Of a stretch of DNA of 64,000 nucleotides, positions 16,916 to 62,374 are shown piece after piece. How positions within the stretch are numbered: the first letter of the stretch is position 1; every line of letters starts with the position of its first letter. The notes under the pieces were generated by a model. It did not search any database, was not told the origin of the DNA, and worked only from the letters and a program-made list of their open reading frames with translations. The stretch comes from Eledone cirrhosa (lineage: Eukaryota). The stretch covers positions 20,646,001-20,710,000 of the forward strand of contig OZ024748.1 in assembly GCA_964016885.1 (NCBI GenBank), given 5' to 3'. The translations under genes and the position numbers were made by a program.

Positions 16916-17334
16916 CTGTGTATACATGCATGTATACACACAGCATTAACCTATCCCTAAACCTTGTCAGTGAGAACATGACATTAACAAGTAAACTATC
17001 AACAGCTTATAGATTAAAATTATCTTTAATAACAGCATATATTAGACTATATAAGAAATTTAATGTAAATATAACTGCAGTGTTTTAAATATAGAAACCT
17101 AATTGAAAATAATGAAGTGTAAACACCTCACTATTCCCTCCGTGCACAAAAACAAGATTAATCTTTATACATTTCAGAGATTATTATCTGCTCATCAGAA
17201 AGTATGTACCCCAACGATTTTGCCTACCTAAGGTTCTCGATATGATTGTTTTCATCACTAGCTTGACATAACTAGCAGAGAAAGCTTGATGAGGATAAGG
17301 TCATGAAACACTTGCAATGGTCAATGGAACAATC

Positions 17335-17505
17335 GTTTCTACTGTTGGCACAAGGCCAGCAATTACTCCAGTGCATTACTGGTACTTCAGCTTTATTTCA
17401 TCCTTAAGGATGAAATAAAGCTAATCTTGGAATTTGAACTCAGAAAGTAAAGGGCCATAACTATGTTGCAAAGCATGGTGTCTAATGCTCTACTGATACT
17501 GCCAA
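17335..17505 (-). mobile_element. tRNA-derived SINE (CpG-decayed copy)
   Basis: Aligns with the SINE at 55165-55353 (GGCACAAGGCCAGC..AAGGATGAAA..TTTGAACTCAGAA). Confidence 0.8.
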
Positions 17506-17522
17506 TCAACAATAACATAGGG

Positions 17523-36797: not shown

Positions 36798-38151
36798 GTG
36801 CCTATAATAAGAGAAAGAGGAAGTTATTCTCAAGCCGGAGACCCAGTCTTCTGAATGCAAGCCTATCTGCAACCTTTTGTGATTTGGGTGCCTCAACATT
36901 TCGTGGGGAACACTAATTTACTAGGGAATATTTTGGTTTTGTTTGTTTTTTCTTCTCCACAAGTACATACGAGATAGGTATAATTGTTATAAAATCTCAG
37001 AGGGTAGGGAACTCCGAGTTTCGTCCCATCATTTCCACCACCCCTTTTTCTTAGAGAAATAAAAAGTCAGTTCTGACTTTTTGGTAGATCAAATTCGTTT
37101 AAAAAAAAAAAAAAAAATTCTACCCGAACCAGAGAGGGTTGTAACAGTTAAAAATACCGTTTATTATATTTTAACCAACTTCATCGGTGACCACTTTTCT
37201 AAGTTTATTTGTTCGTTTGAGATAAAGTTACTAAAAGACTTCAAGGGGCTATTTAAATTTGAGGGTGTACCATTGAAAATTAGGTGGAGGGCAGTGCCAT
37301 TCAGTGACACCACCCTCATCCACACCTTTTTTCTTGGCGACGTGCCCGCTCGAATGTTTACAACAAAATGAATTTAGTTAAGAGGAGCCTAATAGAGTTA
37401 ACTAAACGACATAATTTGTCACGATTTATAATTAACGGTACATAAGGTATGTAAACAACTATTAAGCATATACAGTAATTTTTTAAGAGATGAGAATGGT
37501 GAGAGTTTGTGATGTTCATGCGTCAATTAATTGCCACAGTATCAAAAGAGGCCAAATAGAAACGATATGCGGGTCTGTCGAAACGGCCGGAGCTCAACCG
37601 TCGGGGGGGGGGGGTCCCGACTTTTCATTATATATACATACACATAACAAAAACACAAATAAAACGAGTCTTTTACAAAGGTACGAAAACTAAGATCCGT
37701 TAGGTGTTTGTAGAGCGTGTGGCATTCATGCTTTTCAAATAATTGTTTCTACTTTAGGCACAAGGCCAGCATTTCACCAGTGCATTACTGGTACTTTATT
37801 TTATCGACCCCGTAAGGATGAAAGGCAAAGTCATGAACAAAGTATATTTTATTGTCGAGCTAACGAGGTTGTCCCGACGCCGTCGTCTGACATACTAGAC
37901 AAAGCTAAATCCCCTTTCATACCTTGGTGTCAAGATAAATATACAATGTCCTAGATATACCTTAGAGAAAAAAGAATTATTAGAATACCTTTTACCACAG
38001 GTTTTCTCAATCAGGACTGACCTGGGGCTAAACAACAGTTGTCACAACAGAAAGAAGTTTTCAAAACAAAGTTATGAATAAAAGACAAAGCCACTCACTA
38101 TTAAACATAAAAAATATAAATATACATACATGAGTATGTATAATGTCTCAC

Positions 38152-44854: not shown

Positions 44855-45072
44855 GTTCTAATTTAAGCACATAGCCGGTAATTTCGGGGAGGGAGGAATG
44901 GGAGTGGAAGTTAATTAAAGCGACTACCAGTACTTTACTGGTACTTTATTTTATCGATTCTAGAAGGATGAAATACGACGTTGGCCTCGGCAGGGTTTGA
45001 ACTCAGACTACAGAACCAGAACAAATAACGCAAAGTATTTCTTCCATCGCTCTAACAATTTTGCCAATCCAC
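44855..45072 (-). mobile_element. tRNA-derived SINE
   Basis: GGTACTTTATTTTATCGA..AAGGATGAAA..CCTCGGC..TTTGAACTCAG..TGCCAATCCAC. Confidence 0.8.
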
Positions 45073-45479: not shown

Positions 45480-45688
45480 TTTCTACAATAGGAACAAGGC
45501 CAGCGATTTTGGGGGAAGGGGAAGTCAATTAAATCGACCCCAGCGCGTTACTGGTGCTTTATTTTATCAAAACCCCGTAGGAATGAAAGGCAAAGCTAAC
45601 CCCGTGGGATTTGAACTCAGAACTTAAATCGCCGTAACTATGCTGCAAAGCAATGTGTGACGCTCTACCGATTCTGCCAATCCGCCAC
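45480..45688 (-). mobile_element. tRNA-derived SINE, full length
   Basis: Reverse complement of the SINE copies at 61767-62213. Confidence 0.85.
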
Positions 45689-46972
45689 CCTCATATAGCC
45701 ATATATCACTTGACTGGGGTACACACCACCACCAATAGCCACATTATGTTCAAATATTGTACTGAGATATCCTCTGCATGATTCTTTCCAGAAGTAAAGA
45801 GCTAAGTCGAGGTATACTTGTATTGAGTACACACCAATAACACATCTACATAATTCCACATTTGTTTTCGAGCTCAGACATCGGATTATACATTGAAGAA
45901 CTGAACTTAATGAGAAACTAATTGAGGGTTTAAGCCTATATAACTACTCGTGCTTTTAGTAATTTAGGCATCCCGTTATGACCGAAATAAGTTTTACGAT
46001 TGTCGATCGTTTCATTAATCTCTTCATAGAAGTTATTTCTTTAATTGCTGTATCACGTGATGGGCGAGTTCTCTCCCTTAAGCCGAATGGAGCGTTGAAC
46101 TCGATAGATTTTACAAACTGGAGATCGGGTACCCAAAGATAGAAAGTTAAGAGGAAAGTCTTTACCCAGCTATGGCATAACAGTGGTTTGGTTAATTTAA
46201 TAGCACCAGACTAGAAATTAAAGATACAGCAAAAAACAACTTTCAAAATATCGATTTCTATAATAGGTTCAAAGCCCAAAATCTGGGTAAGAAAGTAAAT
46301 TATATCGGCATACATTTCTTTCCGTATCTGATTTATACACCAATAGCTACATATCCACGCTGTACTAGAGTACACAACACCAATAGCCACATGCCCAAAT
46401 ACTGTACGAAAATAGCTCATTCTATGTATATAATTCCTTCCGGCAGTAAAGACGCAAGTCGAGGTATAACTATTGAGTATATACCAACAACACTACACCG
46501 TATGCATCATTACCACATGTTAAAGGCAACATCTACCGATCTATTCAGTAGTGTAGCTCTGTGACAAAATGTCCACAATAGAAGAACAGTTAATAGTAAA
46601 GTATCAGTGATTTCGTGGCCCGTGTACTCAATAGAATGTTGAGAATGTAATGGTGGCGAGGCTAGAGTATTCAGCATTGTTTTATATATAAATATGAATG
46701 TAATAGATATAGAAGCAGTTGTAATAAAAAAAATTTCATAAGCTGTAAATCTGTCTTCCTTTCTTTCCTGATGAAGGACTTAAGTCTGAAACCTCCACTT
46801 CAACCAAGCGTGAACCCAATACACTCGTGGAAAATTGCCTCCTGCGTTTTGTTGGTTATTTTCAACTATATATATATAATATATATAATACATACAGAGT
46901 TGAAAACCAAATTAAAAGCTGTTTATAGAGAGAAAGGGCCGTTAATATAAAAGATACTGTATGTCACACACA

Positions 46973-53573: not shown

Positions 53574-55164
53574 GGTTACTTAGATCAAGAAAACGGATTA
53601 CTCTCCAAAACGTGTCACAGGCCTCGTCGAAACCACGTAGATACTAGGTGAACTTAAACCACGTAACCATACTTCTGTTCAACTAAGAGGAAAAGGTTAC
53701 AAAATAAAAAAAAATAAAAATAAAAATAAAAAAAAAATAAAAAAAAAATAAAAATAAATTCTCTCCAGAAATACCCCCACCTCTCCAAACCTAGCGATAG
53801 TTGCAATATGCAAAATTGTAATCGAAATATAAATTTATTTCCAAGTTTAAGAGAAATAAATTTATTTTTAATAGTATACGGCAGTTATAAAAAATAAAAA
53901 AAAATAAAATTTAAGAAAGGCCACACTAACAGTTTGCAGGAACGGAAACTATCAAAGTATGGAATAGCAATAAATCTCAGATTAGAAAATAAAAATATTT
54001 TCTAGAACTAAATAGGAAAACTATTTTCTATAATCAACAATGTGTGGGCTTTAGGATAATGACGGCAAAGAATTGTTAGTATTCAATTCTTTGTGAAGGT
54101 AAGTGGCTTCACATGAAGAGCCGACCATTAGATTGGACTAAGGAAACATTGTTTCGTTTCCTTGGTCTGTCGTTGCCGGTCGCAACTACTAGCAGAAAAT
54201 ATGAAAAGGCAGCAAGCAAGAAGAAAAAAAAATAACTAAAAAAAAAAAATAAATTAAACAAATTTAAATTTTTTTTTAAATAAAAAAAAAAAAAAAAAAT
54301 TAAATTACTTATCCTCCAAGAGATTAGACGGTAAAAAGCGTTGCTCAAGGAAGCCGTTTGCCTTAGGCGACACTTATCTGTATTGTTACAGTGTGTGTAT
54401 GGAGGGCGAGGTATATATAATAAAAATTTAAAAAAAAAAAAACTAAAAAAAAAAACATTAGGTGGCGCAACCTCTAACTACGCCACAGAAATAAACCAAA
54501 GAATCATTGTTTACAAATTCAATTCCACGAAGTTATAAAAACTCTACAGACCAATTTGACTTCAGTTATAAAGTTTCGGGGTAGATTCCTATATACGTTT
54601 TCTTTTCTTTCTGAACCACGTATGATAAGTCAAATTTGAATAAAAACTCAAAAATAACTAATACAAATCTCTAGATTCACATGAAATCTGTCGAGGGTTC
54701 AATTCAAAAGATCCGTGAGGTGAGGCTGTTTAGCTGGTTCGCAGGGTTGATTTTTTCTTCTCACATCTTTGGTAAACAGTTCCAACAGGATATCCGAGTC
54801 GTCCAATTTGACTGCTGGAAAGATTAAAAATATCCCTTTATCATTACTCTATATTTAATATTGAACTTTTGTATTAAAGGCTTTATTTCACAATTATCTC
54901 AATATCGAACCTACGAGATTTTCATATTTATGTTAAGAACAATAACTTATGAGTTTGAGTAGCCAGTTGCAGCTAGTTTTAACAGAAAGGTGACAGTTCT
55001 GGCCGGATATGACTAAAGGGTTAAGCCCGTATATACTCATGTATAAGTTGCTTCTTTTCTTCGTTTAAATACAAGGTAAAAACCAGCATAGTGGGACTAA
55101 ATGTCGTTGCAAAGGGAATTTATCTAAATTTGAGAAAAAAAAAAAAAAAATTATTATATATATA

Positions 55165-55353
55165 TAATTGTTTCTACGTTAGGCACAAGGCCAGCAATTA
55201 CCCAGTGCAATACTGGTACTTTTTATTTTATCGACCCCATAAGGATGAAAGGCAAAGTTAACCTCGGCGGGATTTGAACTCAGAATGGCAAGGGCCGTAA
55301 CTCCATGCGTCAAAGCATGGCGTCCGTCCCTCTACCGATACTGCCAATCCACC
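55165..55353 (-). mobile_element. tRNA-derived SINE, near full length
   Basis: A/B-box head and GCCTTTCATCCTT..GGGTCGATAAAATAA core on the minus strand. Confidence 0.88.
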
Positions 55354-56752: not shown

Positions 56753-58612
56753 TTTTAGGCGCCCCCATGTGAAGTCATTAAGGAGATGAGCGATTGCAAT
56801 AGAGAAGCGACCTTGCAATTGCCGTTTAAAGCTTCAAACCAGACTCTTGTCTTATGGTTACTGGTCGTAATCAATTCGCCACTTATTACCAGGACATTAA
56901 TCAATAAATGTTTATTACAGTACACCGGTCTGACAGATAGGTGTAGTCATAGTAACATTTGAAATTTTAGAGTAATTAGTTGACATGCTTCGTTAGAAGT
57001 TTCAACAGCGAAATTTGATTTCGCTACGATTTTCACGCTTTGAACGAATATTCCTTTTAAACCCGCCGTAAATAGTTTTGCGACTTGCTTAAACACTCCC
57101 ATAAAACCAGTCTCGGAGATGGGCGTAATAATATATTACCGAAGCGAGCTTGGTTTATTGGTAGCAATACATTTGTCAGTGGATACTAAAACATTAGTAT
57201 AATGTTCACAAAAGAGTTTTCTTGACCTTGTTGAGAGCGTAACAGAAATAAAAGTGGAACGCATGGTTACATTCGTTTGTTGGATTGGTGACAGTCTCCG
57301 AAACATTCTTAAACAAAAATATAATTCCAAACAGAGTTCAAAGTTCTTGGCACTATATCGAAGTGGAGCGAGGTATGGCACAGATAATAGTAATAGTCGG
57401 TAGAATGACAATAAAATCCGTTGTGGAGATGAAAAAAAAAAAAAAAATTAAAATAAAGCCCTTTACTGTATAGATAAAACTCTGACGTATGTCATGGCTT
57501 TTATGTAGAGTACGGGAAAACACGAAACGGGATCTTTTCAGTTTATATATGGTCATTCTCGGACTAAATTGCCAACCAACGTAACAGAGGCGCTATGCCT
57601 TCATGTAATAGCAATACGGATGTGCTGCAGACATGCTTCCCATTATCAAGGACTGAATAAATTGTTTGGTTTGGTAACATCCATAACAGGCTTGCTGGAG
57701 AAAATATCTCTGTAGATATTGTATCTATAATAAACATCACGAAAAATCACTTGAAACCAACTGGTTAGAATAACGGTACATCGCTTGTTATAGTAAAGTT
57801 CTGCGCTTCAATGTCGTTACCGCCGCTGTTGCCGTGGTTCTGATTTCTCCCATCTCTGTGACAGTACTGCGATCATTCAGATTTTTAAGCCATTCTTATA
57901 ACGTCAAAGCCTATTGGAACATCCTATTTTTCTGTGTTAGTAGGTGTGTTCAGGTACCTATTAATATTACTATTTCTTCCAAGTAAGACAAACCTTACTG
58001 AAATAAATTGATTATTAATATTTGTATGTGCGTTTGTTTATATCGCTATTTTTTACGACTGTCTGTGCTCTGAATTCAAATCTTGCCGAGGTCAACTATG
58101 CTTTCAACACTTTTTTTTTTTTTTTTTTTTTGGCGGGGGTGATACATTAAAGTAACACTCAACTACTGGGTCAATTTAATCTCCTAAATTGTGCTTAAAA
58201 TAGAAATTATTGTGTATCTATATCATTATTTATTTACGACATTCTATGTTCTGAGTTCAAATACCGGCGAGTTTAACTTTCAGATGCCCTTCATCATTTC
58301 GGGGTTCAGCAAAATAAAGTACCAGTTAAGTACTAGGAGTAATATATTCGACTTTCTTCTTACCCAAATTGGTGACCTTGTGTCAATGGTAGAAAGAAAT
58401 ATTTTGTGGGTATAAGCGCGCTGCCTGCGTGATTAAAATTACCGCTCTGTGTTCCCACTGTACGAGATGTTAGCCAAATATTTTCAACAATAGATTCGAG
58501 TTGATCAATACTTTCCAATCACAAGGTCCTAGATTCTAACCCTATATTTTTCTCTGCAAATAGTTATTTCTCTAAAGTTAATCTTGTGTCATTTGTGTGT
58601 GTGTGTATATAT

Positions 58613-59983: not shown

Positions 59984-60172
59984 CGGAGGAAATGTGGTAA
60001 GGAACCAGGTGAGGTGGACCATAACGCACCAAAGTACTCAATACTTAGGGTAGTAGAGTGGGTAATAGGAACGAGTAGGACCCCGACGGCTGAGCTCAAG
60101 CCGTTTCGACGTGTAATTCTGAATTAGCCGTCGAAACGGCTTGAGCTCAGCCGTCGGGGTCCTACTCGTTCC

Positions 60173-60175
<3 letters not shown>
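59781..60175. mobile_element. Two inverted copies of a small element around (TA)n, plus a perfect 47-bp palindrome (60065-60175)
   Basis: 59850-59906 is the reverse complement of 59980-60045; AGGACCCCGACGGCTGAGCTC occurs three times counting both strands. Confidence 0.75.
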
Positions 60176-60211
<36 letters not shown>

Positions 60212-60436
60212 CAGAGAGAGTGAGTGAGAGAGAGTGTGTGAGAGAGAGAGAGAGGGGTGTCTGTATGTATGTATATATATATATACACAAGGTTTAATAT
60301 AGAAATGGCTTCTGGTGATTTCTCCCGAATGAAACAGTTCTAGTCTTCTAGAAGCCATTTCTATATTAAATATTTATACTCTGCTATGTATTGACTACCT
60401 TACTTACTGTAGTTACCCCCGATTGAACCCGGGATA

Positions 60437-60514
<78 letters not shown>

Positions 60515-60594
60515 GTATTAAGGATACTATTTATGGTTATGTATATAAACTTTTTATAGTTATATATATTTTAAACCCTAAACAGTGAAAGACA

Positions 60595-60642
60595 GCTCCG
60601 AAGAAGACTCCAAACCTCGGTTTGGACGAAACAATTGTAAGT
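60595..60642 (+). ncRNA. Degenerate minimal hammerhead in a mini-element within (TA)n
   Basis: GCT-CCGAAGA..TCCAAACC-TC-GGTTTGGA-C-GAAAC-AATT-GTA-AGT then AATAAA; one core substitution. Confidence 0.55.
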
Positions 60643-60818
60643 TAATAAATGGTTTGAACAGAACTTTGATTCATGTAATTTCTATATATATATTTATATA
60701 TATTTATATATATATTTATATATATTTATATATATATTTATATATATATTTATATATATATTTATATATATTTATATATATATTTCTATATATATATTTA
60801 TATATATTTATATATATT

Positions 60819-61152
60819 TAAAAGAAACCAAAGAACGCTTACAAACTCAAACAGTTTTTATTTGCTTTTTATTGTTTTAACCATTGTTTGTATTTTTTGC
60901 TTTTGAGTGCCATCAATTGTATCTGCATCTTGTGAGATCTGCTTGTGCCCTAGCATTTAGCTGTGGTGTTTAACAACCCCAGCATGTACTCTCTCCTTAT
61001 TCACCATCTCCGATCTCCCTATCTTTACCCTCTATTGTATCCCGATTGTTCGTGTTTATTAAGCTCTGATGAATCCTACCCAACCGTATGGATGAAACAT
61101 TGTAAGCAAATAAAAACTGTTTGAGTATGTAAGCGTTCTTTGGTTTCTTTTA
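60819..61152 (+). mobile_element. Penelope-type mini-element with an inverted terminal copy (60819-60866 / 61105-61152)
   Basis: 48-bp inverted arms with 1 mismatch; contains a hammerhead and AATAAA. Confidence 0.75.
61063..61107 (+). ncRNA. Minimal type I hammerhead ribozyme
   Basis: Stem I GCT/AGC, core CTGATGA, stem II ATCC-TAC/GTA-T-GGAT, GAAAC-ATT-GTA cleavage triplet. Confidence 0.8.
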
Positions 61153-61766
61153 CGTATAACGGCTCTGTTCTCGTACATTGAGCTAATACAATACCGTCAA
61201 AATATAACATGGTGCTATACGTACGTAAATAAATAAATATATATATATACATTATTCAAATATCATTATCTTTAATCACTTCTGCGTGTCAGTAATGAAG
61301 ATAAACTATAGGATTTCTTTAATGCAAACACGTAATTGATCCGATCGCATATTTCCCGGTCTGTGAGATTGTTCCTATATTCGGTGATCCGGGAATGGCT
61401 TACTAATGAATGTATGTATGGTCCCGCAACACCTGATGAAGTCGTATCGGTGTCGTATTGATATACAGCGTTTTTAGGGTCATATTTAAAATTGAGGATG
61501 CCCATTTCTTCTCCATGTCTGACTACAGCAGATTTCTTTCAGAGATGGACAGAGAAAGGGAGAGAGTGGAAATGATAAAGGGATATAGAGGAACGATTAA
61601 CCCATTACTTGACATGCACTTTTTTATTAACCACCAATGGATGAAGGGCAAAGTTAACCTAACACACTAATAGTGGACAAATTAACCCTTTAGCATTTAC
61701 ATTACTCTATATATACTATTATATTTTCATAGAAAACACTTTATTTCACATAATTACCTCACATAA

Positions 61767-62374
61767 CGGTGGATTGGCAGTATCGGTAGAGGGTCGGACG
61801 CCATGCTTTGGCGCATAGAGTTATGGCTTTACGGTCTGAGTTTGAATCCTGCCGAGGTTAACTTTGCCTTTCATCCTTACGGAGTCGATAAAATAAAGTA
61901 CCAGTATTGCACTGGGGTAGATTTAATCGACTTTCCCCCTCTCCACAAAATTGTTGGCCTTGTGCCTATAGTAGAAACCATTATTACGACATTTGGGCGG
62001 TGGATTAGAGTATCGGTAAAGCGTCCGGCACCCAGCTTCCCGGCATTGAGTTACGGACCTTTACGTTCCGAGTTCAAATCTCGCCGAGGTTCGCTTTGCC
62101 TTTCATCCTTACGGAGTCGACGAAATAAAGTACCAGTAACACACTGGGTCGATTTAATCGACTGGCCTCTCCCCCAAAATTGCTGGCCTTGTGCCTAAAC
62201 CAGAAACCATTATTTAGACATTCTGATTTCAAATCCTGCCGAGGCTAGCTTTGCTTTTCATATTTACGTGGTCGATAAAATAAAGTACCAGTAACATACT
62301 GGAGTCGGTTTGATCGACTCTCCTCCACCCCTTAAAATTGCTGTCCTTGTGCCTAAATCAGAAACCATTATTAT
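61767..62374 (+). mobile_element. Three tandem tRNA-derived SINEs (61767-61985, 61996-62213, 62215-62374)
   Basis: A box TGGCAGTATCGG, B box GTTTGAATCC/GTTCAAATC, core GCCTTTCATCCTTACGGAGTCGA, tail GAAACCATTATT. Confidence 0.9.

What the first reader, a model, noticed from the sequence alone, without database searches (positions are those of the whole stretch)
60819..61152. Hammerhead mini-element whose inverted terminal copy stops at the ribozyme cleavage site
Seen: an intact minimal hammerhead (61063-61107, GUA cleavage after 61104). The 48 nt from 61105 to 61152 are present as an inverted copy at 60819-60866, so the inverted arm matches the 3' cleavage product to within 1 nt (the junction runs into a T tract). 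Known: Penelope-like elements carry minimal hammerheads in pLTRs and often have inverted partial pLTRs. Inference: self-cleavage defines the RNA end copied during integration, giving a 334-bp non-coding TIR-like retroelement.
Basis: partly seen in the sequence, partly recalled or inferred. Interest (0 to 1): 0.75.

Follow-up and report, generated by a model that had tools for sequence, protein, structure and literature searches.

The report
Head-to-head truncated Penelope retroelement ends
This stretch holds two cut-down tail ends of one Penelope-like jumping gene lying head to head in a TA-rich repeat, a known insertion form; the short arm's end at the hammerhead cut site is likely a draw from a broad spread of stopping points, so it is ordinary.

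Summary
Window 60819-60867 is the reverse complement of 61104-61152 (49 nt, 1 mismatch). 61052-61116 carries a complete hammerhead core, with the predicted cut after 61104.

It is not a 334-bp mobile unit. It is the junction of two 5'-truncated 3' ends of an abundant Penelope-like element (PLE) of the Hydra type. That element has a hammerhead in its 3' UTR, 49 nt before its 3' end, and inserts into (TA)n.

Head-to-head (minus then plus) pairs are the usual form here: 14 pairs among the first 100 listed copies of this family, about 26 among 100 of a sister family.

Arm ends are spread from +13 to -1187 relative to the cut site. At nucleotide resolution, 6 of 21 breaks within -13..+1 in the two families lie at the site:
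- binomial P = 0.07; P = 0.15 without the window's own event;
- 5 of the 6 keep the base 5' of the cut.

In the listed rows, 99 of 100 (this family) and 100 of 100 (sister) copies read through the site.

Verdict: a known PLE insertion architecture, with at most a mild, unproven preference for the hammerhead site. The scan noted the same coincidence earlier in other genomes.

The parts
60434..60512 (.). (TA)n microsatellite, left flank of the family-B element
60513..60682 (+). Family B: a ~170-nt non-coding element with a hammerhead-like motif (core CCGAAGA, GAAAC AATT GTA, cut-equivalent after 60639). It is flanked by (TA)n on both sides in 6 of 6 aligned copies.
60683..60812 (.). TA-rich microsatellite (TATATATTTA-like units) abutting the 3' end of the inverted arm. 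Read on the minus strand it is the A-run type that follows the element's 3' end in other copies.
60813..60867 (-). Inverted arm: the last 55 nt of the PLE 3' UTR (positions -1 to +49 relative to the cut site, plus the first bases after CTTTTA). It uses the short 3' end and has no tail extension.
60868..61153 (+). Direct arm: 5'-truncated PLE 3' UTR, starting 276 nt before the cut site in the coordinates of copy L047. It is 84% identical to that copy over the blastn alignment, which includes a 36-nt deletion before the hammerhead.
61052..61116 (+). Minimal type I hammerhead motif with a complete core; predicted cut after 61104.
61154..61239 (+). Optional 3' 'tail' extension (ACGGCTCTG...GAGCTAAT...TACGTACGTAAATAAATA), shared by a subset of copies and by the sister family. 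In the window it has an internal deletion of about 30 nt.
61240..61250 (.). Short (TA)n at the right flank

Best explanation
The 334 bp are two 5'-truncated 3' ends of one Hydra-type Penelope-like retroelement family lying head to head in a TA-rich microsatellite. They likely arose in one insertion in which reverse transcription was primed on both strands of the cut target.

Shown:
- Both arms belong to a dispersed family whose copies run from a C-terminal endonuclease ORF through a ~2.4-kb 3' UTR to a hammerhead, followed by 49 nt.
- The two arms use different 3' ends. The short arm stops at ...CTTTTA. The long arm carries the extra ~85-nt tail.
- Minus-then-plus pairs are the common form of this family.
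- Arm ends are spread widely.

Inferred:
- Each cDNA started at the element's 3' initiation sites and stopped early, after 55 nt and about 290 nt.
- The two were joined at a 2-3-nt CT(T) overlap.
- The short arm's end beside the ribozyme cut is mainly a draw from a broad distribution of stopping points, with at most a 2- to 3.5-fold local preference.
For: Family and anatomy:
- At least 1261 first-look candidates. 41 forward-strand places were scored, and all but the window's own match only 37/48-334.
- Other copies continue upstream.
- L035 links the UTR to an ORF end with GIY-YIG-like motifs.
- The sister copy L061 has a 962-aa open frame with RWR, DKT, CNCX5C and CxxC...CxH. These are the marks Craig et al. 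2021 give for the Hydra clade (section read). It has the same hammerhead-plus-tail layout 2.2 kb after the stop.
- (TA)n or (CA)n lies at 3' ends, and (TA)n at the 5' ends of truncated copies.

Pairs:
- 14 minus-then-plus pairs within 3 kb among the first 100 of 205 anchors.
- About 26 among 100 of 970 in the sister family. None was plus-then-minus, counted by eye.
- The arm ends plus L037 and L046 lie at -1, -1, -3, +5, -11, -16, -29, -33, -59 ... -1187.

Independent initiation:
- The window's minus arm lacks the tail and its plus arm has it. At the second site-ended locus L031 it is the reverse.

Literature:
- An Anolis PLE protein cleaves and extends both DNA strands in vitro. It starts at two internal sites that bound the 'tail'. 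Hammerhead mutants do not change the insertion product (Frangieh et al. 2024, main text read).
- An inverted 5'-truncated copy is a usual PLE feature (Craig et al. 2021).
Against: The site is not clearly neutral:
- 6 of 21 breaks whose first canonical base lies in -13..+1 are at -1/+1: the window, L031 and L089 in this family; L081, L082 and L090 in the sister family.
- Binomial P=0.068 for two of 14 positions. P=0.014 if only starts at -1 are counted.
- Two independent head-to-head loci of one family share the same arm start.

Other weaknesses:
- Priming on both strands was shown in vitro for a PLE of another clade only.
- Pfam finds no RT or GIY-YIG domain in the ORFs, so the clade assignment rests on motifs read by eye and on weak Atlas kinship.
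Confidence: 0.65

Rival explanations
1. Stall at the folded hammerhead. The reverse transcriptase copies the 49-nt tail and the cleavage-site nucleotide N17 of an uncleaved RNA. It then stops or switches template at the base of helix III, at the three-way junction. The site would be mildly preferred because of RNA structure, not cleavage.
For: - 5 of 6 site events keep the canonical base at -1 (A in this family, T in the sister family). P=0.022 if a flank base matches by chance 35% of the time.
- A mild excess sits at the site (6 of 21).
- Other junctions sit inside the near-palindromic helix III/loop 3: L079 at -4/5, L080 at -6/-6, L070 at -5/-12, and family B pairs centred on CAATTG.
Against: - The excess is not significant once the window's own event is removed (P=0.15, or 0.05 for -1 only).
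- In L081 and L082 the -1 T is also in register with the flanking (TA)n.
- No direct evidence that the motif folds on the template.
Confidence: 0.18
2. First reader's idea. The short arm was copied from the 3' product of hammerhead self-cleavage, so the cDNA ran off at the new RNA 5' end.
For: - Three events in this family (window, L031, L089) and three in the sister family (L081, L082, L090) start at -1/+1.
- L090 starts exactly at +1.
- L081 and L082 are solo 48-nt fragments flush with (TA)n, the product the idea predicts.
- Earlier scan notes report over-use of the site in another genome. These are leads only.
Against: - 99 of 100 and 100 of 100 listed copies read through the site.
- Only 6 of about 1175 anchors (205 + 970) start there.
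- 5 of 6 carry the base 5' of the scissile bond.
- Family B, whose core has C in place of U4, shows 4 of 33 local breaks at the same place, with its main peak elsewhere (-11, 12 of 33).
- Minimal PLE hammerheads cleave poorly, and single motifs not detectably (Cervera and de la Pena 2014, passages read).
- In the Anolis PLE no RNA reads start at the site, and ribozyme mutants insert normally (Frangieh et al. 2024).
Confidence: 0.12
3. A 334-bp non-coding mobile mini-element with terminal inverted repeats, moving as a unit.
For: Only the shape of the locus.
Against: - Only the window itself matches the query over 1-334, 1 of the 41 forward-strand places scored.
- The one similar composite, L031, has a different plus-arm start, swapped tails and different flanks.
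- The plus arm is a truncated piece of a longer element.
Confidence: 0.02
4. A later local inverted duplication of the plus arm's 3' end, by replication or repair error, unrelated to retrotransposition.
For: The arms are 48 of 49 identical.
Against: - The inverted arm ends at the family's canonical short 3' end and is followed by TA-rich repeat, as independent copies are. The plus arm continues into the tail, so a local copy would have carried tail sequence.
- The same orientation recurs in 14 of 14 close pairs.
Confidence: 0.03

Closest known systems
Hydra clade of C-terminal-endonuclease Penelope-like elements (Craig, Yushenova, Rodriguez, Arkhipova 2021, PMC8557442)
   Same: - Single ORF with a divergent RT followed by a C-terminal GIY-YIG-like endonuclease.
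- RWK-like (RWR) and DKT motifs.
- CxCX5C linker.
- CxxC and CxH around the conserved E and N.
- Canonical hammerhead.
- Insertion into (TA)n.

   Different: - The elements here are longer: about 2.4 kb of ORF plus a 2.2-2.4 kb 3' UTR, against 'generally short (<3 kb)'.
- They are extremely abundant: 60,955 first-look candidates for the endonuclease part.
- No phylogeny was made.
Usual PLE insertion architecture: 5' truncation, inverted 5'-truncated copy at the 5' side, optional 'tail' (Craig 2021 citing Evgen'ev and Arkhipova 2005 and Arkhipova 2006; Frangieh et al. 2024, PMC11167929)
   Same: - A head-to-head partner.
- Heavy 5' truncation.
- Two alternative 3' ends bounding an optional extension.
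- An AT-rich target.
   Different: - The tail here is about 85-100 nt rather than 30-40 bp.
- No direct pseudo-LTR is present at this locus.
Minimal hammerheads of metazoan PLEs (Cervera and de la Pena 2014, PMC4209133)
   Same: - Type I topology.
- Long helix II (7-8 bp) with a bulge.
- Tiny helix III with a near-palindromic sequence suited to dimers.
- Dual motifs 100-700 bp apart on opposite strands were already noted there.
   Different: - The G10.1-C11.1 pair they found highly conserved is absent. It is A-U in the window and unpaired in 32 of 38 copies.
- A 2-bp helix III with a 3-nt loop is present.
Non-LTR retrozymes of animals (Cervera and de la Pena 2020, PMC7229834, search listing only; Li, Clavereau, Pollet 2026 preprint, abstract read)
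   Same: Short non-coding hammerhead-bearing sequence related to PLE pseudo-LTRs. The neighbouring family B is a small non-autonomous relative.
   Different: No tandem monomers at this locus. There is no evidence for circular RNA.
L1 twin-priming inversions (Ostertag and Kazazian 2001; recalled, not read here)
   Same: Inverted 5' part produced during target-primed reverse transcription, with microhomology at the junction.
   Different: In twin priming the two parts are different segments of one RNA. Here both arms start from the element's 3' end, so there were two initiations at the 3' end.

Membership tests
Hammerhead ribozyme, type I, minimal PLE type | Conserved core C3 U4 G5 A6 N7 G8 A9 / G12 A13 A14 / A15.1-U16.1 / H17 | tested here: met
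   All present at 61066-61072, 61094-61097, 61103 and 61104. The alignment's invariant columns fall mostly in the core and cut-site region, across 38 copies.
Hammerhead ribozyme, type I, minimal PLE type | Helices I and II kept by pairing across copies | tested here: met
   86.3% of cells are paired, against 34-49% with slid partners. 3 helix-II pairs change on both sides, and 0 of 500 shuffles reach the covariation score. Caveat: the structure was derived from these sequences and the copies are related. Family B is out of register in the upper part of helix II.
Hammerhead ribozyme, type I, minimal PLE type | G10.1-C11.1 pair | tested here: not met
   A-U in the window. Not a standard pair in 32 of 38 copies.
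Hammerhead ribozyme, type I, minimal PLE type | Match to a curated Rfam hammerhead model | tested here: not met
   No match at gathering score over 64 kb, nor at E<=10 over 60000-62000.
Hammerhead ribozyme, type I, minimal PLE type | Self-cleavage after H17 | not testable with these tools
   No RNA run is listed for this stretch.
Penelope-like element, Hydra clade | Single ORF with RT and C-terminal GIY-YIG endonuclease | tested here: inconclusive
   Read by eye: FDIDAYYTS, MGSSDS, YRDD and FLDVTL, then IVY...YIGST...R..H. Pfam finds nothing and PDB sequences give nothing. Atlas kin clusters carry GIY-YIG on 26-50% of members and RVT_1 on 18%. The 124 homologues carry only PF26215 or PF28514.
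Penelope-like element, Hydra clade | RWK and DKT motifs, CxCX5C linker, CxxC and CxH motifs | tested here: met
   RWR, DKT, CNCRRASGC, and CNLC...CPH in L061 or CIH in L035, compared with the description read. Read by eye, with no profile.
Penelope-like element, Hydra clade | Hammerhead in the UTR / pseudo-LTR | tested here: met
Penelope-like element, Hydra clade | Insertion into (TA)n | tested here: met
   Flanks. One site-ended solo copy (L089) lies in unique sequence.
Penelope-like element, Hydra clade | Inverted 5'-truncated partner and optional tail | tested here: met
Penelope-like element, Hydra clade | Element shorter than 3 kb | tested here: not met
   The frame after the repeat-coded part is about 800 aa, followed by 2.2-2.4 kb of 3' UTR.
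Non-LTR retrozyme | Tandem monomers, each with a hammerhead | tested here: not met
   No direct repeat of the unit in 60815-61400. The second motif at 60590-60655 belongs to another family.
   Of the 41 forward-strand places scored, only the window itself spans 1-334.

The most novel reading that the evidence does not exclude
The hammerhead of these PLEs is folded, or even cut, on a minority of template RNAs in vivo and leaves a genomic footprint. Insertion arms that begin at N17/+1 are 2- to 3.5-fold over-represented in two families with an intact core. The window holds one such arm.
Probability: 0.3. Interest if true: 0.55.

Novelty: new member of a known kind. Interest (0 to 1): 0.3.

Why it matters
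What PLE hammerheads do in vivo is an open question. In vitro they cleave poorly, and ribozyme mutants insert normally. If arm starts truly piled up at the cut site, genomes would hold a free record of ribozyme action during retrotransposition.

In this genome the record is weak. The site is used by about 0.5% of copies (6 of about 1175 anchors) and is at most mildly favoured.

The locus itself is an ordinary example of the PLE head-to-head insertion form.

The data do add that this form dominates two families here. They also show that some junctions sit in the palindromic helix III.

Tried and rejected
- Rfam at gathering score and at E<=10: no hammerhead match. The only hits were weak miRNA-like ones on an unrelated hairpin.
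- Generic core pattern in the window: not above chance.
- RNA evidence: no RNA holder listed. Three runs of unknown kind hold a small share as contigs, which cannot show RNA ends.
- Pfam on four ORF pieces and PDB sequences: nothing.
- Homologue names: uninformative.
- Pattern VHVB + anchor: 0 matches, because it excluded the canonical A at -1 that the window's arm keeps.
- Family B census with the window's own anchor variant: 0 matches, and the denominator is unknown.
- Rows set aside before counting as indel variants or interrupted copies, not breaks:
  - L075, L076, L077 and the two GTTACGTAAGGAA rows;
  - 5 of 10 rows and 1 of 6 rows;
  - C21:20377047 was kept, as -11 (L083);
  - 8 of 41 rows.
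- Break positions were read by eye. Where fetched, they were checked by blastn. The family B rows were not fetched.
- The earlier idea that L009:2473 and L027:2553 were a second family sharing the 3' module was dropped. They are the short plus arms of head-to-head pairs.
- The idea that the family is a 1.47-kb non-coding element was dropped.
- Print search for a link between hammerhead sites and inverted-arm breakpoints: none found in the held library. Supplements were not read.

Full report
**Observation.**
The inverted repeat is real. Arms 60819-60867 and 61104-61152 are 49 nt long and 98% complementary. blastn to a long natural copy carries the inverted arm on to 60813.

The direct arm holds a complete hammerhead core:
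- CTGATGA at 61066-72;
- GAAA at 61094-97;
- a 2-bp helix III with loop ATT;
- GTA ending at 61104;
- helix I (61055-60 and 61063-65 with 61105-07 and 61109-14);
- helix II (61073-79 with 61086-93).

By itself the loose core pattern is not above chance in the window: 5 matches against 2.4 expected. No Rfam model matches.

Support comes from relatives. On 38 distinct copies of three related families, 86.3% of pair cells are standard pairs, against 34-49% with slid partners. Three helix-II pairs change on both sides. The usual caveat applies: the structure was derived from these related sequences. The G10.1-C11.1 pair typical of hammerheads is missing.

**What it is.**
The window lies in a 3.0-Gb genome. 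The 334 bp hit at least 1261 first-look candidates. Of the 41 forward-strand places scored, all but the window's own match only query 37/48-334.

In alignments, the other copies continue upstream of 60868. So the plus arm is a 5'-truncated copy, with a 36-nt internal deletion.

In L035 the same sequence follows the end of an ORF with a GIY-YIG-like domain, after about 2.4 kb of UTR. That domain has 60,955 first-look candidates in the genome, and many sit in open frames of 844-962 aa.

A sister copy, L061, has a 962-aa frame. It carries RT-like motifs and the marks that Craig et al. 2021 list for the Hydra clade of Penelope-like elements: RWK-like, DKT, CxCX5C, and CxxC and CxH. 2.2 kb after the stop it has a hammerhead of the same build, followed by a homologous 3' region.

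Pfam and PDB sequence searches see nothing in these ORFs. Atlas kin clusters carry GIY-YIG and, more rarely, RVT_1. The clade call therefore rests on motifs read by eye.

Copies end either at ...CTTTTAC, 49 nt after the cut site, or about 85-100 nt further on. Either end is followed by (TA)n or by (CA)n(TA)n. The extra piece is homologous to the sister family's 3' end. It matches the optional PLE 'tail' bounded by two reverse-transcription start sites (Frangieh et al. 2024).

**Head-to-head pairs are the rule.**
- Among the first 100 of 205 places holding the 22 nt after the cut site, 14 minus-then-plus pairs lie within 3 kb.
- Among 100 of 970 places in the sister family I counted about 26 such pairs within 8 kb, and none in the opposite order (counted by eye).
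- Mapped on a natural copy, arm ends lie at -1, -1, -3, +5, -11, -16, -29, -33, -59, -69, -82, -82, -90, -104 ... -1187.
- Some pairs are perfect palindromes (L038 -82/-82; L080 -6/-6).

In the window the minus arm uses the short 3' end and the plus arm the long one. At the only other head-to-head locus of this family with the same arm start (L031), it is the reverse. There the plus arm also starts 23 nt further on, and the flanks differ. These are therefore independent events, and neither is a copy of a mobile 334-bp unit.

**Breakpoint census.**
I searched for copies in which two bases upstream are non-canonical, with the anchor after the cut site kept exact. The printed sequences then show the break.
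- This family.
- Sister family.
- Checks by blastn.

Events whose first canonical base lies in -13..+1:

| Family | Events | Positions |
|---|---|---|
| This family | 7 | -13; -12 with -5 (one pair); -6; -3; three at -1/+1 (window, L031, L089) |
| Sister family | 14 | -13; -11; -9 three times; -6 twice; -5; -4/5; -3; -2; three at -1/+1 (L081, L082, L090) |

So 6 of 21 events lie at the site. All figures below are:
- Binomial P=0.068 for two of 14 positions, and 0.146 without the window's own event.
- Counting starts at -1 only: 5 of 21, P=0.014; 4 of 20, P=0.050.
- Five of the six keep the canonical base 5' of the cut (P=0.022 at a 35% chance match).

Downstream (+3..+13), each family shows about five further breaks.

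Family B has C in place of U4. It shows 4 of 33 local breaks at the site, with its main peak at -11 (12 of 33; read by eye, not fetched).

In the listed rows, 99 of 100 and 100 of 100 copies read through the cut site.

**Mechanism.**
The best-supported reading has four steps:
1. The element's protein cut a TA-rich repeat.
2. cDNA synthesis started on both strands from the element's 3' initiation sites. This is inferred; it was shown in vitro for another PLE.
3. Both cDNAs stopped early.
4. They were joined at a CT(T) overlap at 60865-60867.

The short arm's end is mainly one draw from a broad spread.

A mild real preference for the hammerhead site cannot be excluded. If real, the retained -1 base favours a stop on uncleaved, folded RNA over run-off on the cleaved 3' product.

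A mobile 334-bp unit and a later local duplication are both rejected by the data above.

**Comparison and novelty.**
The following are all in print:
- the inverted 5'-truncated partner;
- the tail;
- the (TA)n target;
- the minimal hammerhead;
- dual hammerheads on opposite strands.

I found no paper linking arm breakpoints to the cut site (searches; supplements not read).

Earlier notes of this scan report the same coincidence in other genomes, with verdicts from 'over-used' to 'only mildly favoured'. My census here agrees with the milder reading.

The locus is a new member of a known kind.

Noticed in passing
window 60513-60682: Family B is a ~170-nt non-coding element with a hammerhead-like motif whose core reads CCGAAGA (C in place of U4) and whose loop 3 is the perfect palindrome CAATTG. 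It is flanked by (TA)n on both sides in 6 of 6 aligned copies. It has at least 2117 first-look candidates, some 99% identical over its last 80 nt. It is the real 'mini-element' of this region.
   Followed up: partly
G000 family B copies: 12 of 33 truncated or rearranged family B copies begin at -11 (AAACAATTGTA|AGC), just after G12 of the motif. The upstream letters vary. The cause is not resolved: it could be microhomology with (TA)n, or an internal deletion between similar AAACAAT stretches.
   Followed up: no
L079, L080, L070, L074, L038; C4:234581430/449 and C15:29947294: Some head-to-head junctions are perfect palindromes with equal arm ends, and several are centred on the near-palindromic helix III/loop 3 of the hammerhead. 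This looks like snap-back synthesis.
   Followed up: partly
L004, L007, L011, L016, L022, L030, L031 3' ends: In many copies a (CA)n run lies between the element's last bases (...CTTTTAC) and the flanking (TA)n. This may be reiterative copying at the AC start site by the telomerase-like RT, or a target preference.
   Followed up: no
window 60066-60174: A G+C-rich, near-perfect hairpin of about 45 bp gives weak miRNA-family hits on both strands (best 40.8 bits against a gathering score of 61). It is probably a fold-back repeat.
   Followed up: no
window 17331-17510, 37739-37833, 44927-45007, 45539-45691, 55161-55353, 58231-58337, 61767-62371: Copies of a tRNA-like SINE (...GAGTTCAAATCCCGCCGAGGT...GGGGTCGATAAAATAAAGTACC). 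The same SINE is inserted in some PLE copies (L035, L043, L047). 61767-62371 holds several partial units in a row.
   Followed up: no
L047:1-7540 and L048:1427-4270: Large arrays of a 20-nt satellite (ATAAAAAACGGGGCACCCAA).
   Followed up: no
L048:5804-7375 (minus strand): ORFs that look like LTR-retrotransposon RNase H and integrase lie next to a truncated PLE copy. This was judged by eye only.
   Followed up: no
G000: The Hydra-type endonuclease domain gives 60,955 first-look candidates, and dozens of open frames of 844-962 aa. PLEs appear to be a major, partly young, component of this genome.
   Followed up: partly
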